A stretch of 64,000 nt of DNA. It comes from Escherichia phage vB_EcoM_JNE01. Below are positions 50,019 to 64,000 of this stretch, piece by piece. Positions within the stretch are counted from its first letter, which is position 1; every line of letters starts with the position of its first letter. The notes beneath the pieces are model-generated. The model was not told the DNA's origin. It saw only the letters and a program-made list of their open reading frames with translations, and did no database searches. The stretch lies in sequence record OR670491. One strand, given 5' to 3'. A program made the position numbers and the translations under genes.

Positions 50019-50043
50019 CTTCGGTCAACCTTTTTTGTATACT
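50013..50043 (+). promoter_or_regulatory. PeSL-like terminator-promoter cassette
   Basis: Hairpin GGTTGAC-TTCG-GTCAACC + T-run; TTGACT in stem, 17-nt spacer, TATACT. Confidence 0.6.
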
Positions 50044-50073
50044 TAATTCATATTAATTGATGAGGGTATTGCG

Positions 50074-50520
50074 ATGCTGGTATATCGTTTTGAATTAGGC
50101 TTTAGTTATGTAGAAGAAAACTTATATCCAGTGAGATCAATTGGACCGTTCGCACGTTACTATTCACAATACAGTACTGACAACGGGTTTGACCGTTTGC
50201 GTTTAGGAACACCACACGAATTGCAACCTGAACCAGAAAAGGATGGCATTCATTGCATCAAGCACGGTTGGGCTTTTGGCTGTGCATCAATTAAAGACCT
50301 TATTCGTTTCTTCGCTAATGACTTAGGTCGTTTGCATCGTTCCGGCTTTCAGGTTTTTGTATATGAAGTTCCTGATAATCATGTTGATGTTGGTGGTCAC
50401 CAGGTTCAGTACTACGTAGGTAGTGCTAATTTAGTACGCATCATGGGTGTACGTGAAATGAAGCAAGAATACCGCCAGATGAAAGAGGTTGAAGATGCAA
50501 AAAACGCTGTACACGTTTAA
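50074..50520 (+). CDS. hypothetical protein
   Basis: 148-aa ORF. Confidence 0.5.
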   Translation: MLVYRFELGFSYVEENLYPVRSIGPFARYYSQYSTDNGFDRLRLGTPHELQPEPEKDGIHCIKHGWAFGCASIKDLIRFFANDLGRLHRSGFQVFVYEVPDNHVDVGGHQVQYYVGSANLVRIMGVREMKQEYRQMKEVEDAKNAVHV

Positions 50521-50854
50521 GAAGTGGTACACATTCACTTTACCTGGTGACAAATACTTTGACCAACAGGATGATGAATATTACAAAAAAGAAACTCTCA
50601 AATTACTGAAGATGGCTAAACAAGCCCTTTCTGTATACAACAGTTCTTTAAACGTAGCCTATGAGCATTACCGAATCACGGCAAAGATTGATGAAGAAGA
50701 TGGTGAACTTTCATTCTTTGAATACGATATTGTATACTTTGGTTACACCGATGATGAAGACCCAATCAACGTTGATAAGATACGACTTGACCTCACCGCT
50801 ATATCTGTTATACTTAAACAACTGGCTGAGATGTGTGGCTTAATTGAAACATAA
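50495..50854 (+). CDS. hypothetical protein
   Basis: Track ORF trimmed to the second ATG, after an AGAGG RBS. Confidence 0.45.
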   Translation: MQKTLYTFKKWYTFTLPGDKYFDQQDDEYYKKETLKLLKMAKQALSVYNSSLNVAYEHYRITAKIDEEDGELSFFEYDIVYFGYTDDEDPINVDKIRLDLTAISVILKQLAEMCGLIET

Positions 50855-50866
50855 TAGAGGAACACT

Positions 50867-51133
50867 ATGAAACTTAAAATTGAATACAGTGGTTTCTGTA
50901 TGCGTAAAAATACTGAATTTGTAAACCGCACTAAAGGTTCAGAACTCTTTTTTAAAGAGATGCAAATTCCTTATGTAATTGAGACAGTTGGAGATCGTGA
51001 AGTACTGTCCTATGAAGAATACACTAAAGTAGATGTACCGTGGTATTCTGAGCACATGTATATGGACATGGCAGAACGTTACAATTGCGAATTTATTATT
51101 AAACCAAAAACTATCACAATCAAATTTAACTAA
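50867..51133 (+). CDS. hypothetical protein
   Basis: 88-aa ORF. Confidence 0.5.
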   Translation: MKLKIEYSGFCMRKNTEFVNRTKGSELFFKEMQIPYVIETVGDREVLSYEEYTKVDVPWYSEHMYMDMAERYNCEFIIKPKTITIKFN

Positions 51134-51144
51134 GGTAAAATAAA

Positions 51145-51438
51145 ATGATCAGTGCTTCAGTGAATGCCAATATTGTTTCAGATGTAAATTTAATTAAAGA
51201 ATGCACAGATAATGATACTCGTGATCTTTATATTAACAACGTCATTGAGCAATATGGAAACATGGGTGTTATGGAGTTCGTCCGCTTAAACGGTGAACTA
51301 ATCAAGAATAAGATTCGTCTTAAACTTGCGGTTCATCCAAAGGCGTGGGCATTCACAATGAAGTACGCAGAAGATATGTTAGAGCTACGCCGCAGTACTG
51401 TTTACGAACGTTTACATAATGGCACATTAGAGGGTTAA
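51145..51438 (+). CDS. hypothetical protein
   Basis: 97-aa ORF. Confidence 0.5.
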   Translation: MISASVNANIVSDVNLIKECTDNDTRDLYINNVIEQYGNMGVMEFVRLNGELIKNKIRLKLAVHPKAWAFTMKYAEDMLELRRSTVYERLHNGTLEG

Positions 51439-51439
51439 T

Positions 51440-51685
51440 ATGAAAAAGATTGCATTGGGATTGGCTTTTCTTGCATTGAGTGCTTCTTCGTTTGCAGGGC
51501 AAGCAGAATATGATCAACCACGTTCTGTGAAGTGTGTAGATTTGCGTGGGGGAATTATATCTTATGATGAACATGAAGTACGACGTGCTAAAATTGATAG
51601 TGATGGAACAACGGTAATACTGAAGGATGGAAAATTCATTCAATTCAGTCCAGCAGTTCAATGTATCACGGTTTTGCAAGAATAA
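51440..51685 (+). CDS. small secreted protein
   Basis: Signal peptide (...SASSFAGQ); two Cys in mature part. Confidence 0.5.
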   Translation: MKKIALGLAFLALSASSFAGQAEYDQPRSVKCVDLRGGIISYDEHEVRRAKIDSDGTTVILKDGKFIQFSPAVQCITVLQE

Positions 51686-51764
51686 AAGCTTTATTGATCT
51701 ATATCAATTTTCATTACCAAAATGTAAATATTAATGAGTAAAATATATTTTCATGGAGGTTTAT

Positions 51765-52001
51765 ATGGAAGTTGTTATTATAATATGTGCATTTATTTCT
51801 TTGATAGTAATGTTATCTCCAACTTTTATTGCACACAAATTGAAGAACAATAATGCTGAAGCAATAACATACGTTAACATTTGTTGTGTAATGACATATG
51901 GAATACTGTTGTTCTTTACTGAATTTACTTTTATTCCTATAGTTGTATGTTCATCAATGTTCATATGGTTATTCTTACTGTATGAATCTATTAAAAAATA
52001 A
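51765..52001 (+). CDS. small membrane protein
   Basis: Track ORF trimmed to the ATG after a GGAGG RBS. Confidence 0.45.
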   Translation: MEVVIIICAFISLIVMLSPTFIAHKLKNNNAEAITYVNICCVMTYGILLFFTEFTFIPIVVCSSMFIWLFLLYESIKK

Positions 52002-52010
52002 TCAATAACT

Positions 52011-52043
52011 GGGTTGACCGAAGTCAACCCTTTGTTGTATAGT
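52011..52043 (+). promoter_or_regulatory. PeSL-like cassette (inverted loop CGAA)
   Basis: Hairpin GGGTTGAC-CGAA-GTCAACCC; TTGACC -35 and TATAGT -10. Confidence 0.5.
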
Positions 52044-52052
52044 GAGGTTCTT

Positions 52053-52625
52053 ATGAATCGTAAAGGCCGCTTCAAAGTATCAAAGAAAAATAAGAGTTCC
52101 AAATTTAAGCCCATTGTTATATCCGTGAAAAGTAAGCCTGAATTAACTGCTCTTAGTCATAAGATTGTTTCACCTAAGATTAAAGTATCTTACATTAATT
52201 CGTTAAAATTCCAAAAGGTAAAACCACAAGACCAACTCATTTCACTTATATTTGAACGTAATGATTTTGAGATATCAGTCGATGATTATAGAGGCTATAA
52301 TGCTGGCTTCATTAATGTAACTTGTAATAAAGAACTAACTGCGTTAGAAAATTTGACATGTATAATAAATCTTGATAAAGGGGTGGTGACGTACCAATTT
52401 GTACATTTAACCAATATCAATAATGGTATGGGTGTGCAATCCAGAATAATAGTACCTACATGTGATGAGACTAGTTTAGCGAAGCTCAATGAAGAAGAAT
52501 ATTTTCAAGAAAGTATTGTAACTGAGCATTTGGATGTTATAATAGAAACCTACAAAGAATGCGTATGGGTTTTGAACGCAATCAAACCTAAATTATGTTT
52601 AATGAATATAGTTCGTGATTTGTAA
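52053..52625 (+). CDS. EE-x-FFQxS-motif family protein
   Basis: Track ORF trimmed to the ATG after a GAGG RBS; NEEEYFQESIVTEH. Confidence 0.5.
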   Translation: MNRKGRFKVSKKNKSSKFKPIVISVKSKPELTALSHKIVSPKIKVSYINSLKFQKVKPQDQLISLIFERNDFEISVDDYRGYNAGFINVTCNKELTALENLTCIINLDKGVVTYQFVHLTNINNGMGVQSRIIVPTCDETSLAKLNEEEYFQESIVTEHLDVIIETYKECVWVLNAIKPKLCLMNIVRDL

Positions 52626-52637
52626 ATTGGAGAGAAA

Positions 52638-53081
52638 ATGAGTTGGATACATGTTAATCATTCAGTACTGAACGAAATTGATATCTTTGCTTTCGTCAAC
52701 CTTAAGGATGATACTGTCCTTCGTGGACGTTTGTTCACTACACACGAAGGAGTTAAAGGTATTGCACTGATGGATACAAATGGTGCAGTATATGCTTCAC
52801 AGGAGCTACCTGCGTGGACGTATAGCAGTACTGAAGAGAATGTATTCGCAGAAGTAATGAAAGGCTTAGAGGCTCTGCCTGGTGGCGATATCCAGAACAT
52901 CGTATTCAATATTGAACGCGGTAATTACTCACCAGAACATCTAAGTGCATTAGCTATGAGAGCATTGAAGTCAGCTATAGTCACACCTAAGTGTGTGATT
53001 CTGAAGTATGTTCCTGACTTATCGTTAAGTGCACAAGATATGGAATCATTCATTTTTACATCTGAACTGAAACAATATTGA
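52638..53081 (+). CDS. hypothetical protein
   Basis: 147-aa ORF. Confidence 0.5.
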   Translation: MSWIHVNHSVLNEIDIFAFVNLKDDTVLRGRLFTTHEGVKGIALMDTNGAVYASQELPAWTYSSTEENVFAEVMKGLEALPGGDIQNIVFNIERGNYSPEHLSALAMRALKSAIVTPKCVILKYVPDLSLSAQDMESFIFTSELKQY

Positions 53082-53180
53082 ACAAATTTCAGTTAAGTGA
53101 TATAATTACAATGAGTTAATAAGAACAGAACTCATTTGTTATAAATACAAATGTAATTTATCTCTTTAAGGAGTATTGAA

Positions 53181-53564
53181 ATGGTTGATAAATGGAACAA
53201 GAAAGATCCATCACACGATGTGGATATTTCAGGTCTTGACAATGAGCACAAGCATAAGTATCTAGATTCACTAGGTCTACTAAAGCCTGACCAAAGTCTA
53301 TCTCATGACCGCCCTTCACGTGAAAAGGCATTCAGCCTTGAATCCTTGGGTCATGAATTGAATCGTGTATTTGAAGATCACCCAATCTATGTTCGTGATA
53401 TTATTGAAAAGCTTAAAGTAACTCCTAAAGAGCACTTTAAAGCAACAGTACATGCGGCGTTCCGCTCTTTGCACGAAGCACTAAAGAAAACTCATAACCT
53501 ACGTAAGATTCATGATGATATCGTGAAAGCTATCGAAGGTGAGAAACATAAGTTCAAGAAATAA
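53181..53564 (+). CDS. hypothetical basic protein with LxSLGLL motif
   Basis: 127 aa; KYLDSLGLLKP shared with ORF 54152. Confidence 0.5.
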   Translation: MVDKWNKKDPSHDVDISGLDNEHKHKYLDSLGLLKPDQSLSHDRPSREKAFSLESLGHELNRVFEDHPIYVRDIIEKLKVTPKEHFKATVHAAFRSLHEALKKTHNLRKIHDDIVKAIEGEKHKFKK

Positions 53565-53607
53565 ACACTAAGGTTGACTTCGGTCAGCATTTTTTATTGA
53601 TTTAGTA

Positions 53608-53636
53608 TTGACACTATTAAAAGAAATGAATATAAT
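53608..53636 (+). promoter_or_regulatory. sigma70-type promoter
   Basis: TTGACA, 17-nt spacer, TATAAT; just after a PeSL-like hairpin at 53572-53595. Confidence 0.5.
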
Positions 53637-53678
53637 ATCAATCAAGACGTAGATAAACCTAACTTAATGAGGATGTGT

Positions 53679-53972
53679 ATGAAAATTATTATTGCGTTGT
53701 TAGTATGTATATCATTTCAAGTATTATCTGCCCCACAATTAGTATGTACAATTACCCGAACTGATGGACAGACTATGACATTCAATACGAATGAATTGTT
53801 TGGAAGATCAAGTACTGAAACGGAAACCACATATCAATATCACCGACTTGATGTTGGTAATAATGTATCTACGCAAACAGACATGACCATCGATAAAATC
53901 ACACTTAAGGGTCGAATTATTGCTGAGAGAAGTGGTGTTCCAGCTTTATCGGCAACAGTAGACTGCAACTAA
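53679..53972 (+). CDS. small secreted protein
   Basis: Track ORF trimmed to the ATG after a GAGGA RBS; signal peptide; Cys pair. Confidence 0.5.
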   Translation: MKIIIALLVCISFQVLSAPQLVCTITRTDGQTMTFNTNELFGRSSTETETTYQYHRLDVGNNVSTQTDMTIDKITLKGRIIAERSGVPALSATVDCN

Positions 53973-54151
53973 GGAACAGGTATGTATTTATATATCGCAA
54001 TTTCAAGTATTGTCTTTGTTGTTATCGTTACTGGATGGTTTGGGTATCTAATGTTAAGTACAAAATAGGTTGACTTCGGTCAGCCTTTTCTTTATACTAT
54101 AAATATAGTCATAGAGAATAAACCAATATGAAATCTATGGAGAGAAATCAA

Positions 54152-55972
54152 ATGCCAGGTCAATTTACTGATAAAAATGGTGGTAATATGGCTGGTCACT
54201 CTGACCGTTGGAGTGATGCTAACCGCCGTAAGAATAGTTATCAAGCAGGACAAGGTTCACGTGGTTCACGTAATCAAGGGACAGGTTTAGCTGGTAAGGC
54301 AAACGCAGAAGCAGGTGAAGTTAAGAGTACTGAGAACATGACTGAGCTAGAAAAGCTACGTTATGTTAACTCATTAGGTCTTCTTAACGCAACACAGAAA
54401 CAACGCCTTGCTGATATGGAACGTGCTGAGAAAGAACAAGCAGTTCCTAAAGAAGAACCAAAACCAGAAGCTCCTAAAGCAGCTAACCCTGTTAAAGAGT
54501 TATCTGATAACTTAGGTAAGATCTTTGCTAACAAACCACAGTTGATTCAGGGTATTGTCAAAGCACTACAGGCAGTTCCTAAAGAAGAACTCAAAGGTAA
54601 AGCACAAGCTGTACTTGATGCAATGAAAGGTAATAAGAGCACTGAACCTACTGAAGTATTCAGTACTATCATGCGTGCACTGGAAGGTAAACAGAAATCC
54701 TTACCACAAAAGACCGATCAAAAACCAAGCAAACCTAGTGGAAGAATGTCTGAAGACGAATTCCGTGAAGTAAATGATTACTTAGGTGCTAAGTTTGTGA
54801 ACGATATTATCAATCAAGCTAAACAATATACAGACTTAGAGAAAGCACTGTACATTATTGATATGGCAATTGAAAATGTAGATGATGTAAATGATTCTCG
54901 TGCAGTTCGTATGTCAATGTCAAGTGCTGCTGATGACCTCACATCAATGGGATTAACGCTCAAGGATGAAGACGAAAATAATGATATTGAGTTTGATGAA
55001 CACTCACACGATGATGTTAATCTGGAAAGTATTCTTAAAACTTTTGATAGTATTGGCAAAGCAGACCGTGCTAATGCACAGCAAGTCAAGAATGTACTAG
55101 CTAAACTTGAAAACCGTTTAGAAGGTAAAGACGATAAGATTCAATTAGTACATGATGCTATCAAATCAGCATTAGATTCTTATGCACCTGGTGAGAAGTC
55201 TCGATTCATCACTGCTATGAATGCTGCATTCAATACTATGAAAAAGTATGAAGCTGAACATGGTGAGAAAGTATCAAAAGATGGTTACTTAGTTCGTGAT
55301 GATGAAGAAGGGGCAGTTGACCAGAAAGATGCTGAAACATCTCATGATGATTTACCTGATACTGTTGATATGGATGGTTACATTCATCGTCCTGAAATGG
55401 GAGAGTTTGGTTCTGACAAAGAAGGATTTGAACATGCAATGGCAGTGTACAAAGCTCTCGTGAACAATCCAGATTATGCCAACCGATTTGTAGATGAGTT
55501 TGATAGTGCATGGAACAACTACAAAGACAAAGGTTATGACTTCCCTGCTGAGGCAGCATTCTTTGAACTTGGTAAACTTTTAGCTAAACATGGAATTGAT
55601 GTAGGTTCTAAAGATGGTACTGATACTGATGGCATGGAAGCAGAATTGGCTAAAGATCGTGAAATGAACGACAACTCCATTCATGAACTCCAGAAGCTAA
55701 TGATGTGGATATCCGATATTGGTAAAAAAGCTGGTGCTGATAATAAGAGTATCAACAAAAACATTAGTTGGATTAAAAGTAATGTTGGTAAAAATGCTCG
55801 TAAACTACAAAAAGCATGGACTGATTTAGTAAATGGTGCTGATGATGTTGACATTGAATCACCAGAAGCATACGAATATGCATTAACTACTCTTGATAAT
55901 TCCTTTAAAGATTACGATAACGGTAACGTAACTCATTGGGAAAAGGATATCATGAACAAATACGGTAAATGA
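54152..55972 (+). CDS. large hypothetical protein (about 606 aa), charged and low-complexity
   Basis: Track ORF trimmed to the ATG after a GGAGAG RBS; optimal codons; flanked by PeSL cassettes; shares YVNSLGLL motif with ORF 53181. Confidence 0.55.
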   Translation: MPGQFTDKNGGNMAGHSDRWSDANRRKNSYQAGQGSRGSRNQGTGLAGKANAEAGEVKSTENMTELEKLRYVNSLGLLNATQKQRLADMERAEKEQAVPKEEPKPEAPKAANPVKELSDNLGKIFANKPQLIQGIVKALQAVPKEELKGKAQAVLDAMKGNKSTEPTEVFSTIMRALEGKQKSLPQKTDQKPSKPSGRMSEDEFREVNDYLGAKFVNDIINQAKQYTDLEKALYIIDMAIENVDDVNDSRAVRMSMSSAADDLTSMGLTLKDEDENNDIEFDEHSHDDVNLESILKTFDSIGKADRANAQQVKNVLAKLENRLEGKDDKIQLVHDAIKSALDSYAPGEKSRFITAMNAAFNTMKKYEAEHGEKVSKDGYLVRDDEEGAVDQKDAETSHDDLPDTVDMDGYIHRPEMGEFGSDKEGFEHAMAVYKALVNNPDYANRFVDEFDSAWNNYKDKGYDFPAEAAFFELGKLLAKHGIDVGSKDGTDTDGMEAELAKDREMNDNSIHELQKLMMWISDIGKKAGADNKSINKNISWIKSNVGKNARKLQKAWTDLVNGADDVDIESPEAYEYALTTLDNSFKDYDNGNVTHWEKDIMNKYGK

Positions 55973-55981
55973 TAAAGAAAA

Positions 55982-56014
55982 GGGTTGACTTCGGTCAGCC
56001 CTTTTTGCTATAAT
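55982..56014 (+). promoter_or_regulatory. PeSL-like terminator-promoter cassette
   Basis: GGGTTGAC-TTCG-GTCAGCCC + TTTTT; TTGACT in stem; TGCTATAAT extended -10. Confidence 0.65.
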
Positions 56015-56042
56015 CATTTCATCAACTCAAGAGGAAACAAAA

Positions 56043-56450
56043 ATGAAAAAGACTATTTTAAGCGTAATCGGTGCAGTACTGTTCATGGTAACTTCAGTTG
56101 CTTCTGCTGCAACAGTAGAAGAGATCTTTAATAACAACCTACCTACTCAAGAAGAGATGGGTATTAAGAAGTGTGACCTTTCCCGTTACATCATTTTGGG
56201 ATCACAACTGGTTCCTGATGGTAAGGTTAAAAATCGTGTTAATCTGGTTGAAGATGGTAACACCTTCAGTTTTGAATATGGCGTAGCACCAACCTCCGGT
56301 TCTATGGATAACGTTGATGAAAACACTGGTTCCACCTGGAGTACTAACAAAGGTGATGTGTTCCATCGTATGCGTGAAGGTGGTAAACTGAAATATGTTT
56401 ACGAAAGCCCATTCATCAAACGCGTGTATATTATGACCAACTGCCATTGA
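56043..56450 (+). CDS. secreted protein
   Basis: Signal peptide (...TSVASAAT); Cys near both ends of the mature part. Confidence 0.55.
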   Translation: MKKTILSVIGAVLFMVTSVASAATVEEIFNNNLPTQEEMGIKKCDLSRYIILGSQLVPDGKVKNRVNLVEDGNTFSFEYGVAPTSGSMDNVDENTGSTWSTNKGDVFHRMREGGKLKYVYESPFIKRVYIMTNCH

Positions 56451-56501
56451 CAGATACATTTCAGTACTGTATAATACCTACATCAACCAGAGGATATGAC
56501 A

Positions 56502-56786
56502 ATGAATGTATTAGCCAATCTTGTAGGACAGATGCGTTATAACGAAATCATCACTGATGTTTCTGAACTCACTGAATCAAAAAGCTACATCCACTTAGAT
56601 GAACTAATCATCAAGTACGGAGAGATTGGTGTCAATGAGCTTATTGTTTTTATGATTGAAACTCACAAGTTGAAGTACTTTAAGCTGAACTCTGAACCGT
56701 ATGCAGAACCTAATCTTTATTACAGTTATTACTTGAAGTACAAAGATGAATTCAATAGTATTTTTAGTAAACTATTACTTGCATAG
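56502..56786 (+). CDS. hypothetical protein
   Basis: Track ORF trimmed to the ATG 9 nt after an AGAGGA RBS. Confidence 0.45.
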   Translation: MNVLANLVGQMRYNEIITDVSELTESKSYIHLDELIIKYGEIGVNELIVFMIETHKLKYFKLNSEPYAEPNLYYSYYLKYKDEFNSIFSKLLLA

Positions 56787-56795
56787 GATAACAAT

Positions 56796-57128
56796 ATGAA
56801 TTTTGAATTGATTAATAAAATATCATTCTGTTTCATGTGTTTAATACAATTGTATTTGACACTTGGATATATACTTAGATTTTTTAAGTACAAAAGTATA
56901 TATAAACGCTTTTATGATGATGCACCTATCTTCGATTTACTGTTCATCGGTAATGCGTTTTCTATAGGAGAAATTCTGGTTGATGGCATTGACCCTGCTC
57001 AACCACAGTTAGTTAGTATCTTACTTGGACTAATTGTATCATGTGTTGGTATATTCCCATTGGTGTGGTCATTCTTTCACTTCGTTGGGTGGCTTGATAA
57101 AATACGTAATAATTTACCGGAGCGATAA
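56796..57128 (+). CDS. small membrane protein, paralogue family of three
   Basis: Two TM segments; C-terminal ...RNNLPER. Confidence 0.5.
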   Translation: MNFELINKISFCFMCLIQLYLTLGYILRFFKYKSIYKRFYDDAPIFDLLFIGNAFSIGEILVDGIDPAQPQLVSILLGLIVSCVGIFPLVWSFFHFVGWLDKIRNNLPER

Positions 57129-57463
57129 TGCAAACAGTAAACACATTAAGTTTTATCATTTGTACTGTGTCTGTATTTTATATGGTACTGTGTTATGTTT
57201 TGTGGTTTTTCAAATTTGAAAGCATTTTAGAACGTGTTTATAGGCTGGACTTAGAAGATGAGATTGGTATAACAGTACTCACTGTTCTAGGTTTTGTCTG
57301 TGGTGCGTCTATCCTGTTGGATATGTACATGAAACTACCCATTGATGCCCCACATCCTCCAGTAATCACCAGTTCAATTGTAATTGGTATTGTAGGTTTC
57401 CAGGGATTGATTAGTCTGTTTTCCTCAATAGCTACATATAGAGATAAGCTACCAAAGAGGTAA
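57128..57463 (+). CDS. small membrane protein, paralogue
   Basis: Same architecture; C-terminal ...RDKLPKR. Confidence 0.5.
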   Translation: MQTVNTLSFIICTVSVFYMVLCYVLWFFKFESILERVYRLDLEDEIGITVLTVLGFVCGASILLDMYMKLPIDAPHPPVITSSIVIGIVGFQGLISLFSSIATYRDKLPKR

Positions 57464-57465
57464 AA

Positions 57466-57819
57466 ATGTCGGATAAGTACTACTTTACGGGTAAGAAATG
57501 TGAACCATACGTTTTGGATTACAAGGAGCAGGAACAACCTAAACCGAAAAAGAAAGCGAAGAAGGAAGTAGTGAAGAAACAAAAACCACTGGTTAAAGGA
57601 TTGAAACTTAAACCTTTCCAAAAACTGGACTTTGACACTTACAGAAAGATTTATTTGGATTTGACGTGTAACATTAGCTTTGATGTTAATGCGATGAACA
57701 GGAAGTATAACCTGAAGGGTAGTTTCAATTTTTATTATGACTTAAAGAATGATGATCTTGAATCTTACCATGAGTGGTATAACGTTATGAATAACCACGT
57801 CGATGACAATAACCCATAG
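57466..57819 (+). CDS. hypothetical basic protein
   Basis: 117 aa; Lys-rich segment. Confidence 0.5.
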   Translation: MSDKYYFTGKKCEPYVLDYKEQEQPKPKKKAKKEVVKKQKPLVKGLKLKPFQKLDFDTYRKIYLDLTCNISFDVNAMNRKYNLKGSFNFYYDLKNDDLESYHEWYNVMNNHVDDNNP

Positions 57820-57827
57820 GTGAATAT

Positions 57828-58178
57828 ATGATTGAAATTATCGGAACGATCAGTTTTGTGTCATGTGTATTGTTCTGCACTTACATGATAATTGGACACA
57901 TTTTGTATTTCTTCAATTACATTACTGTGTTTAAAAAATTCTACTTCGAAAAGAGTGGATTTTTGTTTTACATTTGTGATTTTTTCACATGGGTGTCAAT
58001 GGGTGCAGTTATAATGGATATTATGTTTAGTGAAGATGTTTCTAAGGTAGGGTTCGGAATGACGCTTCTACCATTTGCACTATTCGTTACCCTTGTAGCT
58101 TTGTTCTTGATAGTGTTATCAAGTAATTTTATATCAGAGAAATTAAACAAGGCTAGAGAAAACTTCCCAATGCGATAA
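57828..58178 (+). CDS. small membrane protein, paralogue
   Basis: Same architecture as 56796 and 57128; C-terminal ...RENFPMR. Confidence 0.5.
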   Translation: MIEIIGTISFVSCVLFCTYMIIGHILYFFNYITVFKKFYFEKSGFLFYICDFFTWVSMGAVIMDIMFSEDVSKVGFGMTLLPFALFVTLVALFLIVLSSNFISEKLNKARENFPMR

Positions 58179-58189
58179 AGGAGTATACT

Positions 58190-58468
58190 ATGTTCGCACT
58201 ACGTAATAAAAAGACTCACCAAATCGTGGATTATGAATGGGTTTGCTATTACAATACTGGCAGCACTGATATGATTCTGTGCCATGATGGTGAAGAACCA
58301 TTTGTAACCAAACGTCGTGAAACACTCGAAGAGATCATCGAAGAATACAATACCAATGTAAATGCTGAAAATGGTCCTTATGGCGATGGCCTACGTGTAG
58401 AGTTACCAGATGCGTATGAAACTGGTAACATGGATTCTTACGAGATTGTAGAACTGGTGGTTAAGTAA
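58190..58468 (+). CDS. hypothetical protein
   Basis: 92-aa ORF. Confidence 0.5.
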   Translation: MFALRNKKTHQIVDYEWVCYYNTGSTDMILCHDGEEPFVTKRRETLEEIIEEYNTNVNAENGPYGDGLRVELPDAYETGNMDSYEIVELVVK

Positions 58469-58845
58469 TGCGTGTAATGTATAAAGTAACTGAGCTAAAC
58501 AAGCGTCTGCTTAAGATTTCTATGTTTGAGGATAAAGAATCTCTCTATAACTTTAAACGTGCTGTAGAGGCTGCTACGCATCTACAGAAGCTTAAGGATA
58601 AAGGATGTATCATTCTTGAAAACAATTCAGTACTGGAAGGTAACTTCAGTGTAGCCTTTGATGAAGCAGAAGATGGAACACTTTCTATGCCACGTTTGGG
58701 TACTGGTGACATGACAGTGTGGATTGGCTTTACTATGGGAAACAAGAAAGGAACTGTATACGTTGATGAAGAAGAGTTGAAAGATAGCTTCAAAAACTTA
58801 TCGTACATCGAACCACAATACTCTCATAAACTAAGTTTATTTTGA
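58468..58845 (+). CDS. hypothetical protein
   Basis: 125-aa ORF. Confidence 0.5.
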   Translation: MRVMYKVTELNKRLLKISMFEDKESLYNFKRAVEAATHLQKLKDKGCIILENNSVLEGNFSVAFDEAEDGTLSMPRLGTGDMTVWIGFTMGNKKGTVYVDEEELKDSFKNLSYIEPQYSHKLSLF

Positions 58846-58921
58846 GTTGACAATAAAGTTCAGTACTGTATAATGTTTATCAAGGGGATGAACTTCTCAT
58901 CCCCACAATCGAGGAATTGTC

Positions 58922-59476
58922 ATGATTACTTTTAAGAAAACTGCTAACCACATCCATGAGATCTACATTAACGGTCACAAAGCTGGCCTTCTTCGTTTAC
59001 TCGCCCATCATCCGAATATTACCGTATCTGATAATGAACCTAAAGATTGGCGTGTATTTTTCTTTGGAAAGTACAGTGATTTTCAAGTATCAAACCTGAA
59101 GAACATTCGTTCAGTATGCACGTTAACTGAAATTAAAGAAAAGTTAACCAAAGCATTGAAAACTAATCCAGATAGTGTTCTTCCACCTGATAACTTTGTA
59201 GAGAAAGGATATGCCTTAGCTCATTTCAAAGATGGTACTATTCAATCTATCAGTACTGAATATGAATATCAATGGACTGAGTACTTCACTTATGGATCGC
59301 GTAATACATTGATGGCTTCACGTAGTAAATTGGAAGAAGTACTGACTCGTATGAATGAACGCGAGCGTCAATTTTATGACAAACCAGAAATGTGGAGTTC
59401 AACTTACATTGACCGTATTGACTATGTTATTATGACTCCAATATTTGACACTGCTTACTATGATTCTTTGAAATAA
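58922..59476 (+). CDS. hypothetical protein
   Basis: 184 aa; TTGACA-N17-TATAAT promoter about 60 nt upstream. Confidence 0.55.
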   Translation: MITFKKTANHIHEIYINGHKAGLLRLLAHHPNITVSDNEPKDWRVFFFGKYSDFQVSNLKNIRSVCTLTEIKEKLTKALKTNPDSVLPPDNFVEKGYALAHFKDGTIQSISTEYEYQWTEYFTYGSRNTLMASRSKLEEVLTRMNERERQFYDKPEMWSSTYIDRIDYVIMTPIFDTAYYDSLK

Positions 59477-59487
59477 GGATAACTTAT

Positions 59488-59664
59488 ATGAAACTACGTA
59501 CTCGTAATCGACTGATGGATGCACTGTACCATGAACAGCTTTCACTGAATGAAGTGAAGCGTCAGTTAATGTACACATATCTGTTACCCGCTCGCATTGC
59601 AAAACAACGTGCTAAAGAATTGCTGAAAGAAGCAATCGAGTACTGGGAATCTGATTCGTACTAA
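59488..59664 (+). CDS. small hypothetical protein (58 aa)
   Basis: ATG after an AAGGA RBS; below track size cutoff. Confidence 0.35.
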   Translation: MKLRTRNRLMDALYHEQLSLNEVKRQLMYTYLLPARIAKQRAKELLKEAIEYWESDSY

Positions 59665-59692
59665 TTGTCACGTTAATTAAGTGAGGCGATAA

Positions 59693-59944
59693 ATGAAAAT
59701 TTTATTAGTTCTAATACTACTAATTGTTTTACCATTTACGTTAGTATCCCCTGAACTTGCATGGAATGTGTTTGTGTACTTACTATGTACTATTGTAGTA
59801 AATGGTATCTTGTTCTTAGTTCTATTCATAAATGGAATAGGACACGGTGGAGGATGGACCAGAACTGCTGATATTGTACATAAAACCACTATGTCTTTAT
59901 TTGTAGTGTGGAATTTATTCTGGACTTGGTTTGTGTTCTTCTAA
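59693..59944 (+). CDS. small membrane protein
   Basis: 83 aa; three hydrophobic segments. Confidence 0.5.
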   Translation: MKILLVLILLIVLPFTLVSPELAWNVFVYLLCTIVVNGILFLVLFINGIGHGGGWTRTADIVHKTTMSLFVVWNLFWTWFVFF

Positions 59945-59953
59945 TTAAAAAAT

Positions 59954-60325
59954 ATGAATATAGATTTGAAAGGTGCAACCCGAACTGTCATACTCATTGG
60001 GGAATATGCTATCAAGATTCCAACCTTTAAAAGTTGGAAGCTATTCTTAACAGGGATGATAGCTAACCTCAATGAACGTTCTTGGATGCAGTACTCCAAA
60101 CGTAGTGACAGTGGTATATGTCCTACTTTGTGGTCATCTATGACTGGTCTGATAACAGTACAGAAGCGATGTAAACCAGTACATCACCGAGGATTGTTTT
60201 GGGTGGAGTTGTGTGCGTTAGCATCGAAATCAGAGTTGAGTACTGACTTCTTTTATTCAGATGCGAAGCCAGAAAACTTTGGGTATCTGAATGGTAAGTT
60301 AGTTAAACTTGATTACGGAGATTAA
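59954..60325 (+). CDS. protein-kinase-like mini-ORF (N-lobe plus catalytic-loop motifs only)
   Basis: GEYAIKIP (beta3 Lys-like), YSDAKPENF (catalytic-loop-like), C-terminal DYGD (DFG-like); 123 aa. Confidence 0.45.
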   Translation: MNIDLKGATRTVILIGEYAIKIPTFKSWKLFLTGMIANLNERSWMQYSKRSDSGICPTLWSSMTGLITVQKRCKPVHHRGLFWVELCALASKSELSTDFFYSDAKPENFGYLNGKLVKLDYGD

Positions 60326-60326
60326 T

Positions 60327-60596
60327 ATGTACGCATTATATAATAAAGAAAAGAAACGATTCGCTAAGGTTGAAATTTTTATTGATACATTTGATATGTT
60401 AGAGTATTGTATCATCACTGATACTTATGAAGCATTGTATTACGTTCTTGATGACGTATCAGTACTGCAACGATTACTTGAGCGTTCAAAAAGTACATGC
60501 CAGGGTATCCATGATGGTTCATCTTATGAAACACCTGATTGTCCACACGGTCAACTCGATGGGTATGAGATTGTTAAGTTGGGAATTATTGAGTAA
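60327..60596 (+). CDS. hypothetical protein
   Basis: Track ORF trimmed to the ATG after a GGAG RBS, 2 nt after the kinase-like stop. Confidence 0.45.
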   Translation: MYALYNKEKKRFAKVEIFIDTFDMLEYCIITDTYEALYYVLDDVSVLQRLLERSKSTCQGIHDGSSYETPDCPHGQLDGYEIVKLGIIE

Positions 60597-60661
60597 AAGG
60601 TATTGACACAGTTCCCATTTAACAGTATTATGTATGTACACCAACTAATGAGGAATCTGAA

Positions 60662-61021
60662 ATGGCATCTTTAACTGAAATCACTGAACTTAATCCACTG
60701 GCAATTAGTACTGTTCAACGCACCAAGACGTTTTACTTCCGTCCAGCAGAAGGTTGGAAGCGTGGCGTGAATGGTGATTATCGTGAACTGGAAGATAATC
60801 TCGTGGGACGTGTTAATTCAGAACTTAATGTTTATGAAGGTGTTAAGGTTGTACGTTCACATTCTCGTTATTTTGAATACTACATTGAGTCTTCATCAGT
60901 GAATGAAAACAGTTCATTTTCTGTTGACAATACTGATACACTGCGTAATGCAGTATCTATTCTATGTAACATTGCAGAAGAGATGGGATTAACTATCGTA
61001 ACGATTGGTGAGTTAGCATGA
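60662..61021 (+). CDS. hypothetical protein
   Basis: 119-aa ORF. Confidence 0.5.
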   Translation: MASLTEITELNPLAISTVQRTKTFYFRPAEGWKRGVNGDYRELEDNLVGRVNSELNVYEGVKVVRSHSRYFEYYIESSSVNENSSFSVDNTDTLRNAVSILCNIAEEMGLTIVTIGELA

Positions 61022-61158
61022 TTAAAACTTTTATTCTTACAATGGTATTTGGTTCTTATGGTGCTGGTGTGCACCAGTAACTAAGAAATAAAAAAAGGTT
61101 GACAGTAGTCATCCCTTTCTATATAATTAATACATCTTAAGCGAACGAGGATTTACAA

Positions 61159-61575
61159 ATGAATGCAACTCTGAATGGTAAAAATATCAACGTAGCTACT
61201 ATTGCTGCAATTCTGCTAAACAATCGTGAAGTAACTATTGACTTACCACTTACAACTAAAACTGGTATTCTCATTACACGAAATGAATCACACTTCGTTG
61301 GTTACAAAAAGCAAGATGTTATTTCCGTTTGTTTTTATGAATCAGACGGCATCGACGACGAAGTAACTAGTACTGAATACTTCAATACCGACATGATTGA
61401 ATCAGCATCTAAAGCTGCACTTGAGCGTCATGCAAGTGAAGATCCAACTGAAGCATCCAACTTCAGTGTTTCATTTGAAAACACTTTCATCAAAATTGAT
61501 GAAAATGTTATTGATTTTGAAATGGCTGATATCAGTCCGATGGATCTCAATGGCCTTCCAACTGTTAAAGGATAA
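61159..61575 (+). CDS. hypothetical protein
   Basis: 138-aa ORF. Confidence 0.5.
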   Translation: MNATLNGKNINVATIAAILLNNREVTIDLPLTTKTGILITRNESHFVGYKKQDVISVCFYESDGIDDEVTSTEYFNTDMIESASKAALERHASEDPTEASNFSVSFENTFIKIDENVIDFEMADISPMDLNGLPTVKG

Positions 61576-61580
61576 TACAA

Positions 61581-62000
61581 ATGAAATGTCCAATCTGTGA
61601 AAAACAATTGAATGTTGGATCAATTCCTTTCCTTTGGATGGATCGCTACGGTGATAAATGCGTTGCCAGGACTGAATGCTGTGGTCATGCAGTAACAATG
61701 CGTAAGGTTTCAACCTATACAGCAGACCCGTATGTTGGTGAGCGAAGCGAAGATGATTGGGGTACAGAGTTTACTCCTTTGAAGTCTAAAATCCAAGCAC
61801 AAGTAAACGATGAACTTTATGATTCAGTACTGATGCACTTGAAGAACAACGAACTGAGAGAAGCACTTGATGTTATTCGTTCTATTAAGAACCCTTTAAC
61901 AGCAGCTTGGGTGACTCATCAAGTACTGGAATATTTGGATACACCTAGCCAAAAACAAACGCGTAACTGGCTCATTAACGCATTGTATAGTGGAGTATAA
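61581..62000 (+). CDS. hypothetical protein with CxxC...CC motif
   Basis: 139 aa; N-terminal CPICEK...TECCGH. Confidence 0.5.
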   Translation: MKCPICEKQLNVGSIPFLWMDRYGDKCVARTECCGHAVTMRKVSTYTADPYVGERSEDDWGTEFTPLKSKIQAQVNDELYDSVLMHLKNNELREALDVIRSIKNPLTAAWVTHQVLEYLDTPSQKQTRNWLINALYSGV

Positions 62001-62145
62001 GAGTAGTTGTAATCGAAGCTGTAATTTATATGTTGAGGTAGTTCAAATGAAAGTTATGTTTGTATACAACGAATTTGAAGAATGCAAAGGTTGTGGTTTG
62101 CCGAACTATCTTTGTTCCTGTCATGGTGAGTATTTCTGAAATAAA

Positions 62146-62178
62146 GGGTTGACTTCGGTCAGCCCTTTTTGCTATAAT
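62146..62178 (+). promoter_or_regulatory. PeSL-like terminator-promoter cassette upstream of denV
   Basis: GGGTTGAC-TTCG-GTCAGCCC + TTTTT; TTGACT -35; TGCTATAAT. Confidence 0.65.
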
Positions 62179-62206
62179 ACTTTCATCAAGACGAGAGGAT
62201 GAAAAC

Positions 62207-62722
62207 ATGACACGCATTAACTTAGTACACGTTAAAGAACTTGCTGACCAACATCTGATGGCTGAATACCGTGAACTCCCACGCGTGTTTGGTGCTGTAC
62301 AAAAACATGTTCAAGCACGTAAACGTGTCCGTGATTTCAAAATTAACAGTACTTACCTGTTAGGTTCAGGTCATGTAACATTCTTCTACGACAAGTTACT
62401 TTACTTACAGAAGCGACATATTGATATTGTCAACGAATGTTTGCGTCGTGGTATGAAGATTCAAAACACTGAAGTAAACGATATCAGTGGGTTCCCTGCT
62501 GAGTTTTGTAATGATTACGTACCATCGGAGTCAGAGATTAAAACATCGCGTGAGCGTTTGATTGAGAAGCTCCAGATGAAGCCTAAGTGGTATAAATTTA
62601 CTGATGTTGAATGTCCACAGTACGTTAAAGATATGCAGAACGTAAGTAGTAAGATCGAATCTAGTACTGATATGTTCGACGAAATTGAAGAACAAATCAA
62701 AGATGAAATGAATAATTATTAA
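62207..62722 (+). CDS. denV: endonuclease V (pyrimidine-dimer DNA glycosylase/AP lyase), T4 DenV homologue
   Basis: [30 protein letters not shown]...KRVRDFKI...[10 protein letters not shown] matches T4 endonuclease V nearly residue for residue over the N-terminal 70 aa. Confidence 0.9.
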
Positions 62723-62760
62723 AGGAAAGGATTGACTTCGGTCACACAAAGGAACATAAC

Positions 62761-62955
62761 ATGTTATTACTATATTCAAAGCGTTTCTGGATTTCTTTCA
62801 TTGTACTTTCGCTAATCGGCTTCGGTGTGAGTATAATCTTTTCGTGGGATGAATTGGGTACATGGTATTATGAAGTTCCGTGGTACATGAAGATAGCTCC
62901 TTGTTACGCGGCATTGTTCGTGTCCTTCCTTATTGTTGTCTTCAGTGAGGATTAG
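62761..62955 (+). CDS. small membrane protein
   Basis: 64 aa; two hydrophobic segments. Confidence 0.45.
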   Translation: MLLLYSKRFWISFIVLSLIGFGVSIIFSWDELGTWYYEVPWYMKIAPCYAALFVSFLIVVFSED

Positions 62956-63037
62956 TTGATGTAGTGGCTGATAAATCACATGAATTACTAAGGGTACGTT
63001 GGCCTCATCTTAATGAGAAGAAATAAACATTTTAAAG

Positions 63038-63069
63038 GGTTGACTTCTGTCAGCCCTTTTTGCTATAAT
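63038..63069 (+). promoter_or_regulatory. PeSL-like terminator-promoter cassette
   Basis: GGGTTGAC-TTCT-GTCAGCCC + TTTTT; TGCTATAAT. Confidence 0.6.
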
Positions 63070-63095
63070 TATTTCATTAACTAAAGAGGTAATAC

Positions 63096-63329
63096 ATGAA
63101 ACTATCTTTTATACGTTTAGCAGAATTCTTCGGTACTGATATCATTACTTTACAACAAATTGCAGACAATACTTCATTAAGTACACAAGAAGTACTTGAC
63201 TTGGATGTAATTAAGTGCGATAATACTTCCATCGATTACAAAGAAGGTCTTGTCGAAAAAGATAAGATTCAGGCTAAGATTAATGGTGCTGGACGGGTTC
63301 AGTACTGGAAAGGAGTTTTAAGTAAATGA
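63096..63329 (+). CDS. hypothetical protein
   Basis: 77-aa ORF. Confidence 0.5.
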   Translation: MKLSFIRLAEFFGTDIITLQQIADNTSLSTQEVLDLDVIKCDNTSIDYKEGLVEKDKIQAKINGAGRVQYWKGVLSK

Positions 63330-64000
63330 AAATTTATATTGATAAATTTGGAACGACTTATGAATATTATGATTATACACATTATAATTCATATATACAA
63401 AAAAATCATAACCAAATGTCACCTTATTTGCATTATGAAGATTTAATGGAACTATTCTCTAAAAATGTAAATTCTATTAAATTTATTGGTTTTAAAGATG
63501 CAACATGGAAAAGTTCACATACGCATGTGTATTTTGAATATGATAATATGGTATATGAACATTCAATATCAAATATCAAAACAAAATTCGCTGATCATAG
63601 ACATAAACCAGGTAGAATATGTAGAACCTTGGAACAAATTATAAATGAGTCCATTTATATATTTAAAAAATATGATAAATTTAATTTTCATAGCAGTGCA
63701 TCATTTAATGGAGCACGAACTATAATCAATTATACAATTGAAGGACGTGAAAGAATATTTTCTATATCATTCAATTCATTAATAAAAGATTTTAAAGGGG
63801 GAAGCCCATGTTATTCATATGAAGAAGTAGAAAATATATCTATAAAAAAATTAAATGAACATAATTTGAGATTTATCTCAATTAGTAAATTTAATGGTGT
63901 GTTTAGTTGTATTGAATATGAACAACCAACACAGAAAGGAAAAAAATATGTTGATTTTAATATATTAATCTATAATGAATGGAAAGGTAATCTACCGAAT
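63327..64000 (+). CDS. hypothetical protein, 3'-partial (runs off window); very AT-rich gene
   Basis: ATG at 63327; open frame with no stop to window end (at least 224 codons); Asn/Tyr/Ile/Lys-rich; not in the track because it is unterminated. Confidence 0.45.

What the first reader, a model, noticed from the sequence alone, without database searches (positions are those of the whole stretch)
56796..58178. Three tandem paralogous two-TM membrane proteins with a conserved C-terminal basic tail
ORFs 56796, 57128 and 57828 (about 110 aa each) share architecture and C-terminal motifs (RNNLPER, RDKLPKR, RENFPMR); they are interrupted by one unrelated basic protein (57466). Tandem paralogues like this may form hetero-oligomeric membrane complexes (for example holin-, antiholin- or exclusion-like), but no function is assignable.
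Basis: seen in the sequence. Interest (0 to 1): 0.4.

Follow-up and report, generated by a model that had tools for sequence, protein, structure and literature searches.

The report
Early three-helix membrane protein paralogues
Three neighbouring genes of a giant E. coli phage encode diverged copies of one small inner-membrane protein of unknown function. The family is confined to this group of giant phages, is probably made early in infection, and sits in a fast-changing gene island.

Summary
ORFs 56796-57128 (A), 57128-57463 (B) and 57828-58178 (C) are true paralogues: BLASTP E values are 5e-8, 8e-12 and 3e-6, and Smith-Waterman z-scores against shuffles are 8-15. ORF 57466-57819 (X) is an unrelated basic orphan. 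The proteins have three predicted membrane helices, not two, with the N-terminus outside and the C-terminus in the cytoplasm.

The window comes from an Asteriusvirus-type (RaK2-like) jumbo coliphage, closest to phage Turkey5. The family (phrog_19285) has only 11 representatives among 1.84 billion proteins and no Pfam, NCBIfam, PADLOC, PDB or fold match.

- **Expression:** the genes lie in a seven-gene operon behind a perfect sigma-70 consensus promoter, with no T4-type late motif.
- **Position:** the reported lysis genes map elsewhere in related genomes.
- **Variability:** the genes sit in a 2.4-kb hypervariable island whose left edge is a PeSL-like terminator/promoter element.
- **Copy number:** relatives carry 1, 2 or 3 copies in different combinations.
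- **Wider family:** a second, distantly related array of about eight genes lies just beyond the window in relatives.

Purifying selection (dN/dS 0.08-0.84, mostly 0.14-0.31) shows the genes are functional. My best guess, at low confidence, is early inner-membrane conflict proteins that act independently, such as superinfection exclusion. A holin complex is unlikely.

The parts
55975..56014 (+). PeSL-like composite element at the left edge of the variable island: a terminator hairpin (GGGTTGAC-TTCG-GTCAGCCC plus a T-run) that contains the -35 hexamer TTGACT, followed by TATAAT
   Evidence: Sequence read. Promoter scan scores 11/12. The core GTTGACTTCGGTCAGC occurs 8 times in the window against 0.01 expected. 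DNA similarity to BF17, 121Q and A4 breaks here.
56043..56450 (+). 135-aa secreted (periplasmic) protein, part of the variable island
   Evidence: N-terminal signal peptide MKKTILSVIGAVLFMVTSVASA|A and two invariant cysteines, C44 and C134. Only 42-56% identical to the 121Q and BF17 orthologues. No family or PDB match. The single-sequence AF2 model is poor, pLDDT 50.8.
56447..56475 (+). Perfect sigma-70 consensus promoter (TTGACA-17-TATAAT) for the operon
   Evidence: 16 perfect matches in the window, all on the + strand, against 0.13 expected.
56496..56786 (+). First gene of the operon: 96-aa soluble protein, phrog_37917, function unknown
   Evidence: Precedes the family in every Asteriusvirus locus examined; 55-60% identical to the 121Q, BF17 and A4 orthologues.
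56796..57128 (+). Paralogue A (110 aa, three TM helices, subfamily 1)
   Evidence: Closest relatives are 121Q gp207-type proteins (37-42%) and A4_217.
57128..57463 (+). Paralogue B (111 aa, three TM helices); its start overlaps A's stop codon (TAATG)
   Evidence: Closest relative is P0009; K64-1 gp349 and the slot-3 proteins are more distant.
57466..57819 (+). X: unrelated 117-aa basic, lysine-rich soluble orphan inserted in the array
   Evidence: z of about 0 against A, B and C. Found only in Turkey5 and near-identical metagenome copies. Window versus Turkey5 shows 6 synonymous and 1 non-synonymous change, so it is a real coding gene.
57828..58178 (+). Paralogue C (116 aa, three TM helices, a subfamily absent from the 121Q clade)
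   Evidence: Closest relatives are metagenomic P0004 and P0012 at 35-38%.
58190..58468 (+). 92-aa operon gene (phrog_8563), at the right-hand part of the variable island
   Evidence: Only 30-34% identical to the 121Q and BF17 orthologues.
58468..58845 (+). 125-aa last gene of the operon (phrog_7672); conservation resumes here
   Evidence: 78-79% identical to 121Q and BF17. DNA similarity resumes at about 58436-58456.
58847..58874 (+). Next perfect sigma-70 promoter, which starts the following transcription unit; shares a 22-nt sequence (91% identical) with the promoter at 56454-56475
   Evidence: repeat D4. A4 similarity resumes at 58862.

Best explanation
What is shown or predicted:
- A, B and C are three anciently diverged members of a protein family specific to RaK2-like jumbo phages.
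- Each is about 110 aa, with three predicted inner-membrane helices, the N-terminus outside and the C-terminus in the cytoplasm.
- The parts facing the cytoplasm are conserved: TM1, the loop-1 motif FF[KR][YF]x[TS]Φxx[RK]ΦY, and the extreme C-terminal R-x-x-Φ-P-x-[RK].
- The TM2-loop-TM3 hairpin is variable.
- The genes are under purifying selection.
- They sit in a hypervariable island bounded on the left by a PeSL-like element, and different phages carry different combinations of 1-3 subfamily members.

What is inferred:
- They are made early by host sigma-70 RNA polymerase, as part of a seven-gene operon.
- Each paralogue works on its own, or as a homo-oligomer, rather than as an obligate A-B-C complex.
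- The conserved cytoplasmic face supplies a common activity or partner, and the variable hairpin supplies target specificity in the membrane or periplasm.
- The committed functional guess is that they are envelope-conflict factors of the T4 Imm type. In that reading they occlude or alter inner-membrane routes used by superinfecting phages, so a set of paralogues widens the range of competitors excluded.
For: - **Paralogy and family limits:**
- **Topology:**
- **Region-wise conservation** (15 non-redundant members): TM1 0.32, loop 1 0.36 and C-tail 0.36 mean pairwise identity, against TM2 0.18, loop 2 0.12 and TM3 0.14.
- **Early expression:** the perfect promoter at 56447-56475 is one of 16 in the window, against 0.13 expected by chance. 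There is no TATAAATA late motif downstream of 54105. In the relative CBB, RpoD-like promoters mark the presumed early region of short ORFs (PMC5259590).
- **Island:** amino-acid identity to 121Q and BF17 is 23-58% inside 56043-58468 and 78-100% downstream. DNA similarity breaks at about 56040 and resumes at about 58440.
- **Selection:** dS is 0.33-1.1 in the island against about 0.1 outside in comparisons with 121Q. dN/dS is 0.08-0.84, mostly 0.14-0.31. Window-versus-Turkey5 changes are mostly synonymous.
- **Independent modules:** single copies in the fetched island stretch of A4, K64-1 and L010, two in L012, three elsewhere, and different subfamily combinations.
- **Multigene family:** a second array of about eight related three-TM genes exists in Turkey5, 121Q and EJP2.
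- **Precedent (own knowledge):** the characterised early envelope proteins of T4 (Imm, Sp, RI) all deal with secondary infection. PeSL-bounded cassettes are held to carry adaptive accessory genes (PMC4122927).
Against: - There is no experimental datum and no homology to any characterised exclusion protein. Pfam, which to my knowledge includes a T4 Imm model (Imm_superinfect), gives nothing at E <= 1.
- The functional assignment rests only on timing, location, variability and analogy. Several other roles for early membrane proteins fit these equally well.
- Early timing is inferred from promoter consensus, not measured.
- The high divergence is accompanied by high dS and dN/dS below 1. It therefore reflects old alleles and recombination, not demonstrated positive selection.
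- A strictly conserved cytoplasmic C-terminal motif is not a known feature of exclusion proteins, and it remains unexplained.
- The link to the second array rests on weak profile scores (12-18 bits with the uniterated model).
Confidence: 0.3

Rival explanations
1. They are modulators of host inner-membrane proteins, used for host takeover or anti-defence. Each paralogue would bind and inhibit or re-tune a different host membrane protein, such as a transporter, a divisome component, or a membrane-anchored abortive-infection or defence effector. The conserved cytoplasmic motifs would recruit a common factor, for example a protease.
For: The timing, membrane location, variability and multigene arguments are the same as for the best explanation. 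The conserved cytoplasmic loop-1 and C-terminal motifs suggest a shared intracellular partner. Cells infected with Asteriusvirus phage Sharanji filament and bulge before lysis, so some phage product blocks division (PMC11895373). CBB authors interpret the homologous region as early host-takeover genes.
Against: There is no match in PADLOC or any characterised anti-defence family. No target is known. Nothing distinguishes this rival from the exclusion hypothesis in silico.
Confidence: 0.25
2. This is the first reader's lead: the three proteins assemble into a hetero-oligomeric holin/antiholin-type complex that controls lysis timing.
For: The size (about 110 aa), three TM helices with N-out/C-in topology and a charged cytoplasmic C-tail match the general description of class I holins (own knowledge; topology). 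The genes are tightly linked, with A-B translational coupling. The RaK2-like endolysin has an N-terminal TM domain and no firmly identified holin (PMC5259590).
Against: - The operon has a perfect sigma-70 early-type promoter and no late motif, whereas the neighbouring virion gene has TATAAATA at 54098-54105.
- It is not adjacent to the endolysin (121Q gp532) or to the annotated holin candidate (fEgEco12 Gp406c, a weak T4 T-like match).
- No Pfam model of any kind, holin families included, matches at or near its gathering score; the only hits are sub-threshold and unrelated to holins.
- Copy number varies from 1 to 3, and about 8 further paralogues exist.
- An early-made holin would risk premature lysis in a phage for which lysis was observed at about 70 min.
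Confidence: 0.08
3. They are subunits of a phage-specific oligomeric channel or membrane-remodelling assembly (viroporin-like). Such an assembly would adjust ion balance, proton-motive force or membrane structure for the long jumbo-phage cycle, with paralogues as interchangeable subunits.
For: TM2 carries conserved acidic residues at its outer end (the D/E column). There are many paralogues with a common fold. A weak sub-threshold resemblance to three-TM Mrp antiporter subunit F was seen (NCBIfam E 0.0037, 17.9 bits against a cutoff of 95).
Confidence: 0.1

Closest known systems
phrog_19285 / phrog_19454 (uncharacterised PHROG families; 121Q gp207-209 and gp224-225)
   Same: Direct sequence membership. 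A, B and C hit phrog_19285 at E 1.8e-19, 5.5e-6 and 6e-4. A also touches phrog_19454 at E 0.006. 121Q gp208 and gp209 hit phrog_19285, and gp224 and gp225 hit phrog_19454.
   Different: The window's copies are only 17-42% identical to the 121Q-clade orthologues. C belongs to a subfamily not present in that clade. The array is interrupted by orphan gene X.
T4 Imm (superinfection immunity protein)
   Same: A small inner-membrane protein of a virulent myovirus, expressed early and non-essential, located in a plastic genome region (own knowledge for T4; here).
   Different: There is no sequence similarity: no Pfam match at E <= 1, where to my knowledge Pfam includes an Imm model (Imm_superinfect). 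This family has three TM helices rather than the two predicted for Imm, is multi-copy, and has a conserved C-terminal motif. An exclusion activity has not been tested.
Class I holins (lambda S105 type)
   Same: About 100-110 aa, three TM helices, N-out/C-in, with a charged cytoplasmic C-terminal tail (holin definition from own knowledge).
   Different: Early-type promoter, not next to an endolysin or spanin, no Pfam holin match, and many paralogues per genome.
PeSL-bounded cassettes of hyperplastic regions in T4-like phages (Arbiol 2010, PMC2839356; Comeau 2014, PMC4122927)
   Same: The variable island starts at a composite terminator hairpin plus near-consensus sigma-70 promoter, repeated 8 times in the window. 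Content differs between close relatives.
   Different: PeSLs were described for T4-like phages. Here they appear in a RaK2-like jumbo phage, and the same element sequence also hits Vibrio, Aeromonas, Erwinia, Serratia and Pectobacterium phages. Recombination at the element is inferred, not shown.

Membership tests
phrog_19285 (uncharacterised phage protein family) | Significant full-length match to the family profile | tested here: met
   A E 1.8e-19, B 5.5e-6, C 6e-4, all full length. A family HMM recovers the 121Q, BF17, Turkey3, TH47, ph0011 and A4 orthologues.
Class I holin | Small protein with three TM helices, N-out/C-in, and a charged cytoplasmic C-terminus | tested here: met
   Hydropathy and K+R distribution in 14 members; AF2 helices. 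This is prediction only.
Class I holin | Gene in a lysis cassette next to an endolysin or spanin | tested here: not met
   The neighbours are a virion protein, a secreted protein and small hypothetical proteins. The endolysin is 121Q gp532 and the annotated holin candidate is fEgEco12 Gp406c at 246.8 kb.
Class I holin | Late expression | tested here: not met
   A perfect sigma-70 promoter lies at 56447-56475, and no TATAAATA occurs downstream of 54105. This is inferred from motifs, not measured.
Class I holin | Sequence match to a curated holin family | tested here: not met
   No Pfam or NCBIfam family at or near its cutoff.
Class I holin | Triggered lethal hole formation; complements a holin-null phage | not testable with these tools
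   Needs expression and complementation experiments.
T4 Imm-type superinfection immunity | Sequence homology to Imm | tested here: not met
   No Pfam hit at E <= 1. That Pfam includes an Imm model (Imm_superinfect) is my own knowledge, not a tool result.
T4 Imm-type superinfection immunity | Early-expressed small inner-membrane protein | tested here: met
   Promoter and topology predictions. Both are inferred.
T4 Imm-type superinfection immunity | Blocks DNA entry of superinfecting phage | not testable with these tools
   Needs plating-efficiency and DNA-injection assays.
PeSL-bounded hyperplastic cassette | Composite terminator stem-loop overlapping an early sigma-70-type promoter, repeated in the genome, at indel or replacement boundaries between relatives | tested here: met
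   Element at 55975-56014. Eight copies of its core against 0.01 expected. Similarity to BF17, 121Q and A4 breaks at this element. Definition taken from PMC4122927.

The most novel reading that the evidence does not exclude
RaK2-like jumbo phages may carry a combinatorial repertoire of at least 11 early three-TM inner-membrane proteins in two arrays. These proteins would share a cytoplasmic 'handle' (the loop-1 motif and the C-terminal R-x-x-Φ-P-x-R) and differ in a variable TM2-TM3 hairpin. Together they would form a new, modular envelope-level system in which each paralogue neutralises a different inner-membrane target, either an entry route of a competing phage or a host defence or transport protein. 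Cassettes would be exchanged between phages at PeSL-like elements.
Probability: 0.2. Interest if true: 0.6.

Novelty: new member of a known kind. Interest (0 to 1): 0.33.

Why it matters
About 80-90% of jumbo-phage genes have no known function, and the early region is thought to hold host-takeover and conflict genes. This family is a well-defined candidate for experiments:
- It is confined to RaK2-like phages.
- It is under purifying selection.
- It is present in one to three copies at a recombination hot spot.
- It is probably related to a second eight-gene array.
- It has a sharply conserved C-terminal motif that could be used as a handle to find its partner.

If it proves to be an exclusion or anti-defence repertoire, it would explain part of the genome inflation of these phages. 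It would also bear on cocktail design, because therapeutic Asteriusvirus phages might exclude other phages in the cocktail. If it has no such role, it is one more uncharacterised membrane-protein family.

Tried and rejected
**Family and structure searches that found nothing**
- Pfam, NCBIfam and PADLOC scans of A, B, C, X and the operon neighbours gave nothing above cutoffs. The only hits were noise-level: SLAC1 17 bits, DUF1422 12.8 bits, MnhF-like 17.9 bits against a cutoff of 95.
- A profile search of PDB sequences found nothing better than E 1.6.
- The AF2 model of A searched against BFVD and PDB with Foldseek found nothing at E <= 0.001.
- The afdb50 library was unavailable.

**Searches for more relatives**
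- The word-indexed search of 5.8 billion proteins found only near-identical copies for A and X.
- The full HMMER scan of 1.84 billion representatives found just 11 family members.

**Other checks on the locus**
- The secreted neighbour 56043 was tested as a possible Sp/RI-like clue. It has no PDB profile hit, and the single-sequence AF2 model was too poor (pLDDT 50.8) to search.
- No DNA-level repeats link the paralogues, so this is not a recent duplication.
- No tRNA or Rfam element lies in the tested stretch around the locus: tRNA 50000-64000, Rfam 54000-61000.
- The minus-strand ORF 57238-57621 was dismissed. The whole region is + strand coding, with synonymous-biased substitutions in the + frames.

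**Literature**
- I found no description of this family and no Asteriusvirus transcriptome in the papers searched.
- One literature query was too loose and returned nothing useful.

**Ideas rejected**
- X as a degenerate family member: rejected, z of about 0.
- A, B and C as simple orthologues of 121Q gp207, gp208 and gp209: rejected. Only A pairs with gp207. B is nearest to P0009, with K64-1 gp349 and the slot-3 proteins more distant. C is nearest to P0004 and P0012.
Full report
**Source and setting.** The window is from an Asteriusvirus-type (RaK2-like) jumbo coliphage. Window 55900-59500 is 94% identical over its full length to Escherichia phage Turkey5. It matches 121Q, PBECO4, BF17, Sharanji and others over only about 31% of its length. 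The whole 64-kb window is + strand coding with small, tightly packed genes. It carries 16 perfect TTGACA-N16-18-TATAAT promoters, all on the + strand, against 0.13 expected by chance. In the related phage CBB, the same kind of region is interpreted as the early, host-takeover region; it has RpoD-like promoters, short hypothetical ORFs and the phage sigma factor (PMC5259590).

**The observation.** ORFs A (56796-57128, 110 aa), B (57128-57463, 111 aa), X (57466-57819, 117 aa) and C (57828-58178, 116 aa) exist as described. Each has a Shine-Dalgarno-like sequence, and A's stop overlaps B's start as TAATG.
- A, B and C are homologous beyond composition. BLASTP gives E 5e-8 (A/B), 8e-12 (A/C) and 3e-6 (B/C).
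- Smith-Waterman z-scores against 1000 shuffles are 12.5, 14.8 and 8.0. X scores z of about 0 against all three.
- All three hit phrog_19285, a family of unknown function.
- The reported C-terminal motifs are correct. Across the family they generalise to R-x-x-[LIMF]-P-x-[RK] at the very C-terminus.
- The 'two-TM' description is wrong. Every one of 14 members has three hydrophobic peaks. AlphaFold2 of A (10-sequence alignment, mean pLDDT 72.6) gives helices 3-29, 33-40, 43-64 and 71-105.
- Lys+Arg counts are 0-1 in the N-terminus, 2-5 in loop 1, 0-2 in loop 2 and 3-7 in the C-tail. By the positive-inside rule this means N-out/C-in, with loop 1 and the C-terminal motif both cytoplasmic.

**How wide the family is.**
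- tblastn with A finds it in 35 phage records, all Asteriusvirus-like phages of E. coli or Salmonella.
- A profile of A, B and C scanned against 1.84 billion representative proteins finds only 11 proteins at E <= 0.001.
- One of those proteins (P0009) links the family to Klebsiella RaK2-like phages (Muenster, K64-1, RaK2). There a single copy, K64-1 gp349, ends in IRNKLPQR. It sits in the syntenic position between the homologue of the virion protein 54128 and the homologue of 58922.
- There are no matches in Pfam, NCBIfam, PADLOC, PDB sequences, BFVD or PDB folds.

**Copy number and combinations.**
- 121Q (gp207-209), BF17, Turkey3, TH47 and ph0011 have three adjacent copies without X.
- Phage A4 has one copy.
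- Metagenomic contig L010 is a more distant relative with partly conserved gene order and has one copy. Contig L012 has two, just upstream of denV.
- Best-hit analysis shows at least four subfamilies. A groups with 121Q gp207 and A4_217. B is nearest to P0009, with K64-1 gp349 and the slot-3 proteins more distant. C groups with P0004 and P0012 and has no partner in the 121Q clade. 121Q gp208 and P0007 form a type absent from the window.
- ph0011 combines a TH47-like slot 1 (96%) with BF17-like slots 2 and 3 (98% and 93%).
- These patterns argue that each paralogue is a self-sufficient module rather than a subunit of an obligate heterotrimer.

**A wider multigene family.**
- Just beyond the window's end (about 0.9 kb in Turkey5), relatives carry a second tandem array of about eight three-TM proteins of 100-125 aa. 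These are Turkey5 L015 1392-4159, 121Q gp224-232 (with gp228/229 split) and EJP2 EJP02_486-493.
- The array-1 HMM, built without any of these proteins, gives weak hits to several of them. An iterated profile recruits only array members and none of the other membrane ORFs in the window.
- Independently, A has a weak hit to phrog_19454, which is the family of 121Q gp224 and gp225.
- The link is therefore probable but rests on weak scores.
- I could not check whether the genome that supplied this window has the second array.

**Transcription unit.**
- A perfect promoter at 56447-56475 precedes ORF 56496, and the next one is at 58847-58874. The scan found no intrinsic-terminator-like site between 56475 and 58847.
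- The inferred operon is 56496 (96 aa), A, B, X, C, 58190 (92 aa) and 58468 (125 aa).
- The T4-type late motif TATAAATA is absent downstream of 54105. It does occur at 54098-54105, 23 nt before the virion structural gene 54128 (phrog_20398). Late genes in this window thus appear to carry a late signal, and the membrane-protein operon does not.

**A hypervariable island.**
- Against 121Q and BF17, amino-acid identity is 42-56% for the secreted protein 56043, 55-58% for 56496, 23-41% for A, B and C, and 30-34% for 58190.
- It then rises to 78-79% for 58468 and 87-100% for the next five genes.
- At the DNA level, similarity stops at about 56040 and resumes at about 58440. For A4 it resumes at 58862, at the promoter.
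- The left boundary is a composite element: AAGGGTTGACTTCGGTCAGCCCTTTTTGCTATAAT. It is a terminator hairpin that embeds the -35 hexamer, followed by a -10.
- The core of this element occurs 8 times in the window against 0.01 expected. It also gives short megablast hits in Vibrio, Aeromonas, Erwinia, Serratia, Pectobacterium and Klebsiella phages.
- This is the architecture of the PeSL elements proposed to mediate cassette shuffling in the hyperplastic regions of T4-like phages (PMC2839356; PMC4122927).
- Among 121Q-clade orthologues, comparisons with 121Q give dS of 0.33-1.1 within the island and about 0.1 for the genes downstream. dN/dS is 0.08-0.84, mostly 0.14-0.31.
- Between the window and Turkey5, substitutions in A, B, X and C are 6:2, 5:3, 6:1 and 1:0 synonymous to non-synonymous.
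- The genes are therefore functional and under purifying selection. The island's divergence reflects old alleles exchanged by recombination. Positive selection was not demonstrated.

**Anatomy of conservation.** Across 15 non-redundant members, mean pairwise identity is 0.32 (N-terminus plus TM1), 0.36 (loop 1) and 0.36 (C-tail). It is only 0.18 (TM2), 0.12 (loop 2) and 0.14 (TM3). The cytoplasmic face and TM1 are the constant part, and the TM2-loop-TM3 hairpin facing the periplasm is the variable part.

**Interpretation.**
- *Shown:* this is a real, narrow, selected family of small proteins, present in variable copy number at a recombination hot spot.
- *Predicted:* each protein has three TM helices, so the family is membrane-embedded.
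- *Inferred:* early expression; independent action of paralogues; a common cytoplasmic partner or activity with variable membrane or periplasmic specificity.
- *Committed guess (confidence about 0.3):* these are envelope-conflict proteins with an Imm-like role, meaning superinfection exclusion at the inner membrane.
- The grounds for the guess are timing, location, variability, multiplicity, and the T4 precedent that the characterised early envelope proteins deal with secondary infection (own knowledge).
- A nearly equal rival (0.25) is modulation of host inner-membrane proteins for takeover or anti-defence. Sharanji-infected cells filament.
- The holin/antiholin reading (0.08) fits the topology. 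It conflicts with the early-type promoter, with the distant location of the endolysin (121Q gp532) and of the weak T-like holin candidate, and with the number of paralogues.
- A channel or remodelling assembly (0.1) has only sub-threshold support.

**Neighbours.**
- ORF 56043 encodes a 135-aa protein with a Sec-type signal peptide and two invariant cysteines, so it is probably periplasmic and disulfide-bonded. It varies with the island and is missing from A4 and ph0011. No function could be assigned.
- X is a lysine-rich soluble orphan present only in this lineage.

**Verdict.** This is a genuine but uncharacterised phage membrane-protein family. It is catalogued only as hypothetical proteins or unannotated PHROGs, and it is not described in the literature I could search. 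It is a sound experimental lead of moderate interest, not a demonstrably new kind of system.

Noticed in passing
window 55975-56014; core copies at 42930, 50014, 52013(-), 53573, 54069, 55984, 62148, 63039: A PeSL-like composite terminator-hairpin/early-promoter element (GTTGACTTCGGTCAGC core) occurs 8 times against 0.01 expected. The same 40-60-nt element gives megablast hits in Vibrio, Aeromonas 65, Erwinia, Serratia BF, Pectobacterium CBB and Klebsiella K64-1 phages.
   Followed up: partly
whole window, + strand (198, 1411, 6395, 8691, 15749, 17586, 18124, 33723, 37116, 43796, 44356, 44705, 53608, 56447, 58847, 61099): Sixteen perfect TTGACA-N16-18-TATAAT promoters, all on the + strand, against 0.13 expected. 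They mark the window as an early-type region transcribed by host sigma-70 polymerase.
   Followed up: partly
window 54098-54105 and 54128-55972: The T4-type late promoter motif TATAAATA lies 23 nt upstream of a virion structural protein gene (phrog_20398) embedded in the early region. The central part of that protein is variable: 614 aa here against about 495 aa in 121Q.
   Followed up: partly
Outside the window: Turkey5 L015 1392-4159; 121Q L016 2624-5405 (gp224-232); EJP2 L014 3452-6152: A second tandem array of about eight three-TM proteins of 100-125 aa lies about 0.9 kb beyond the window end in relatives. It is distantly related to A, B and C (iterated HMM; phrog_19454 link). 121Q gp228/gp229 look like one split member.
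   Followed up: partly
window 39543-39968, 39973-40416, 48010-48252, 48301-48633, 49056-49448, 51753-52001, 59693-59944, 62761-62955: Many other small + strand ORFs have 2-3 hydrophobic segments and were not recognised by the family HMM. The early region is unusually rich in small membrane proteins. The pair 39543/39973 shows weak similarity (E 0.003).
   Followed up: partly
window 58190-58468 and 60309-60596: Two small soluble proteins share a C-terminal motif (D-x-YEIV-x-L; BLASTP E 3e-4 over 24 aa). They may be distant paralogues. Relatives of both occur in L010 and K64-1.
   Followed up: partly
window 56043-56450: A secreted 135-aa protein with a signal peptide and two invariant cysteines (C44, C134) belongs to the same variable island. 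It is absent from phages A4 and ph0011, and no homologue of known function was found.
   Followed up: partly
window 56454-56475 and 58853-58874: The two promoters that bracket the operon share a 22-nt sequence (91% identical, TTCAGTACTGTATAAT core). This is a possible substrate for cassette exchange (repeat D4).
   Followed up: no
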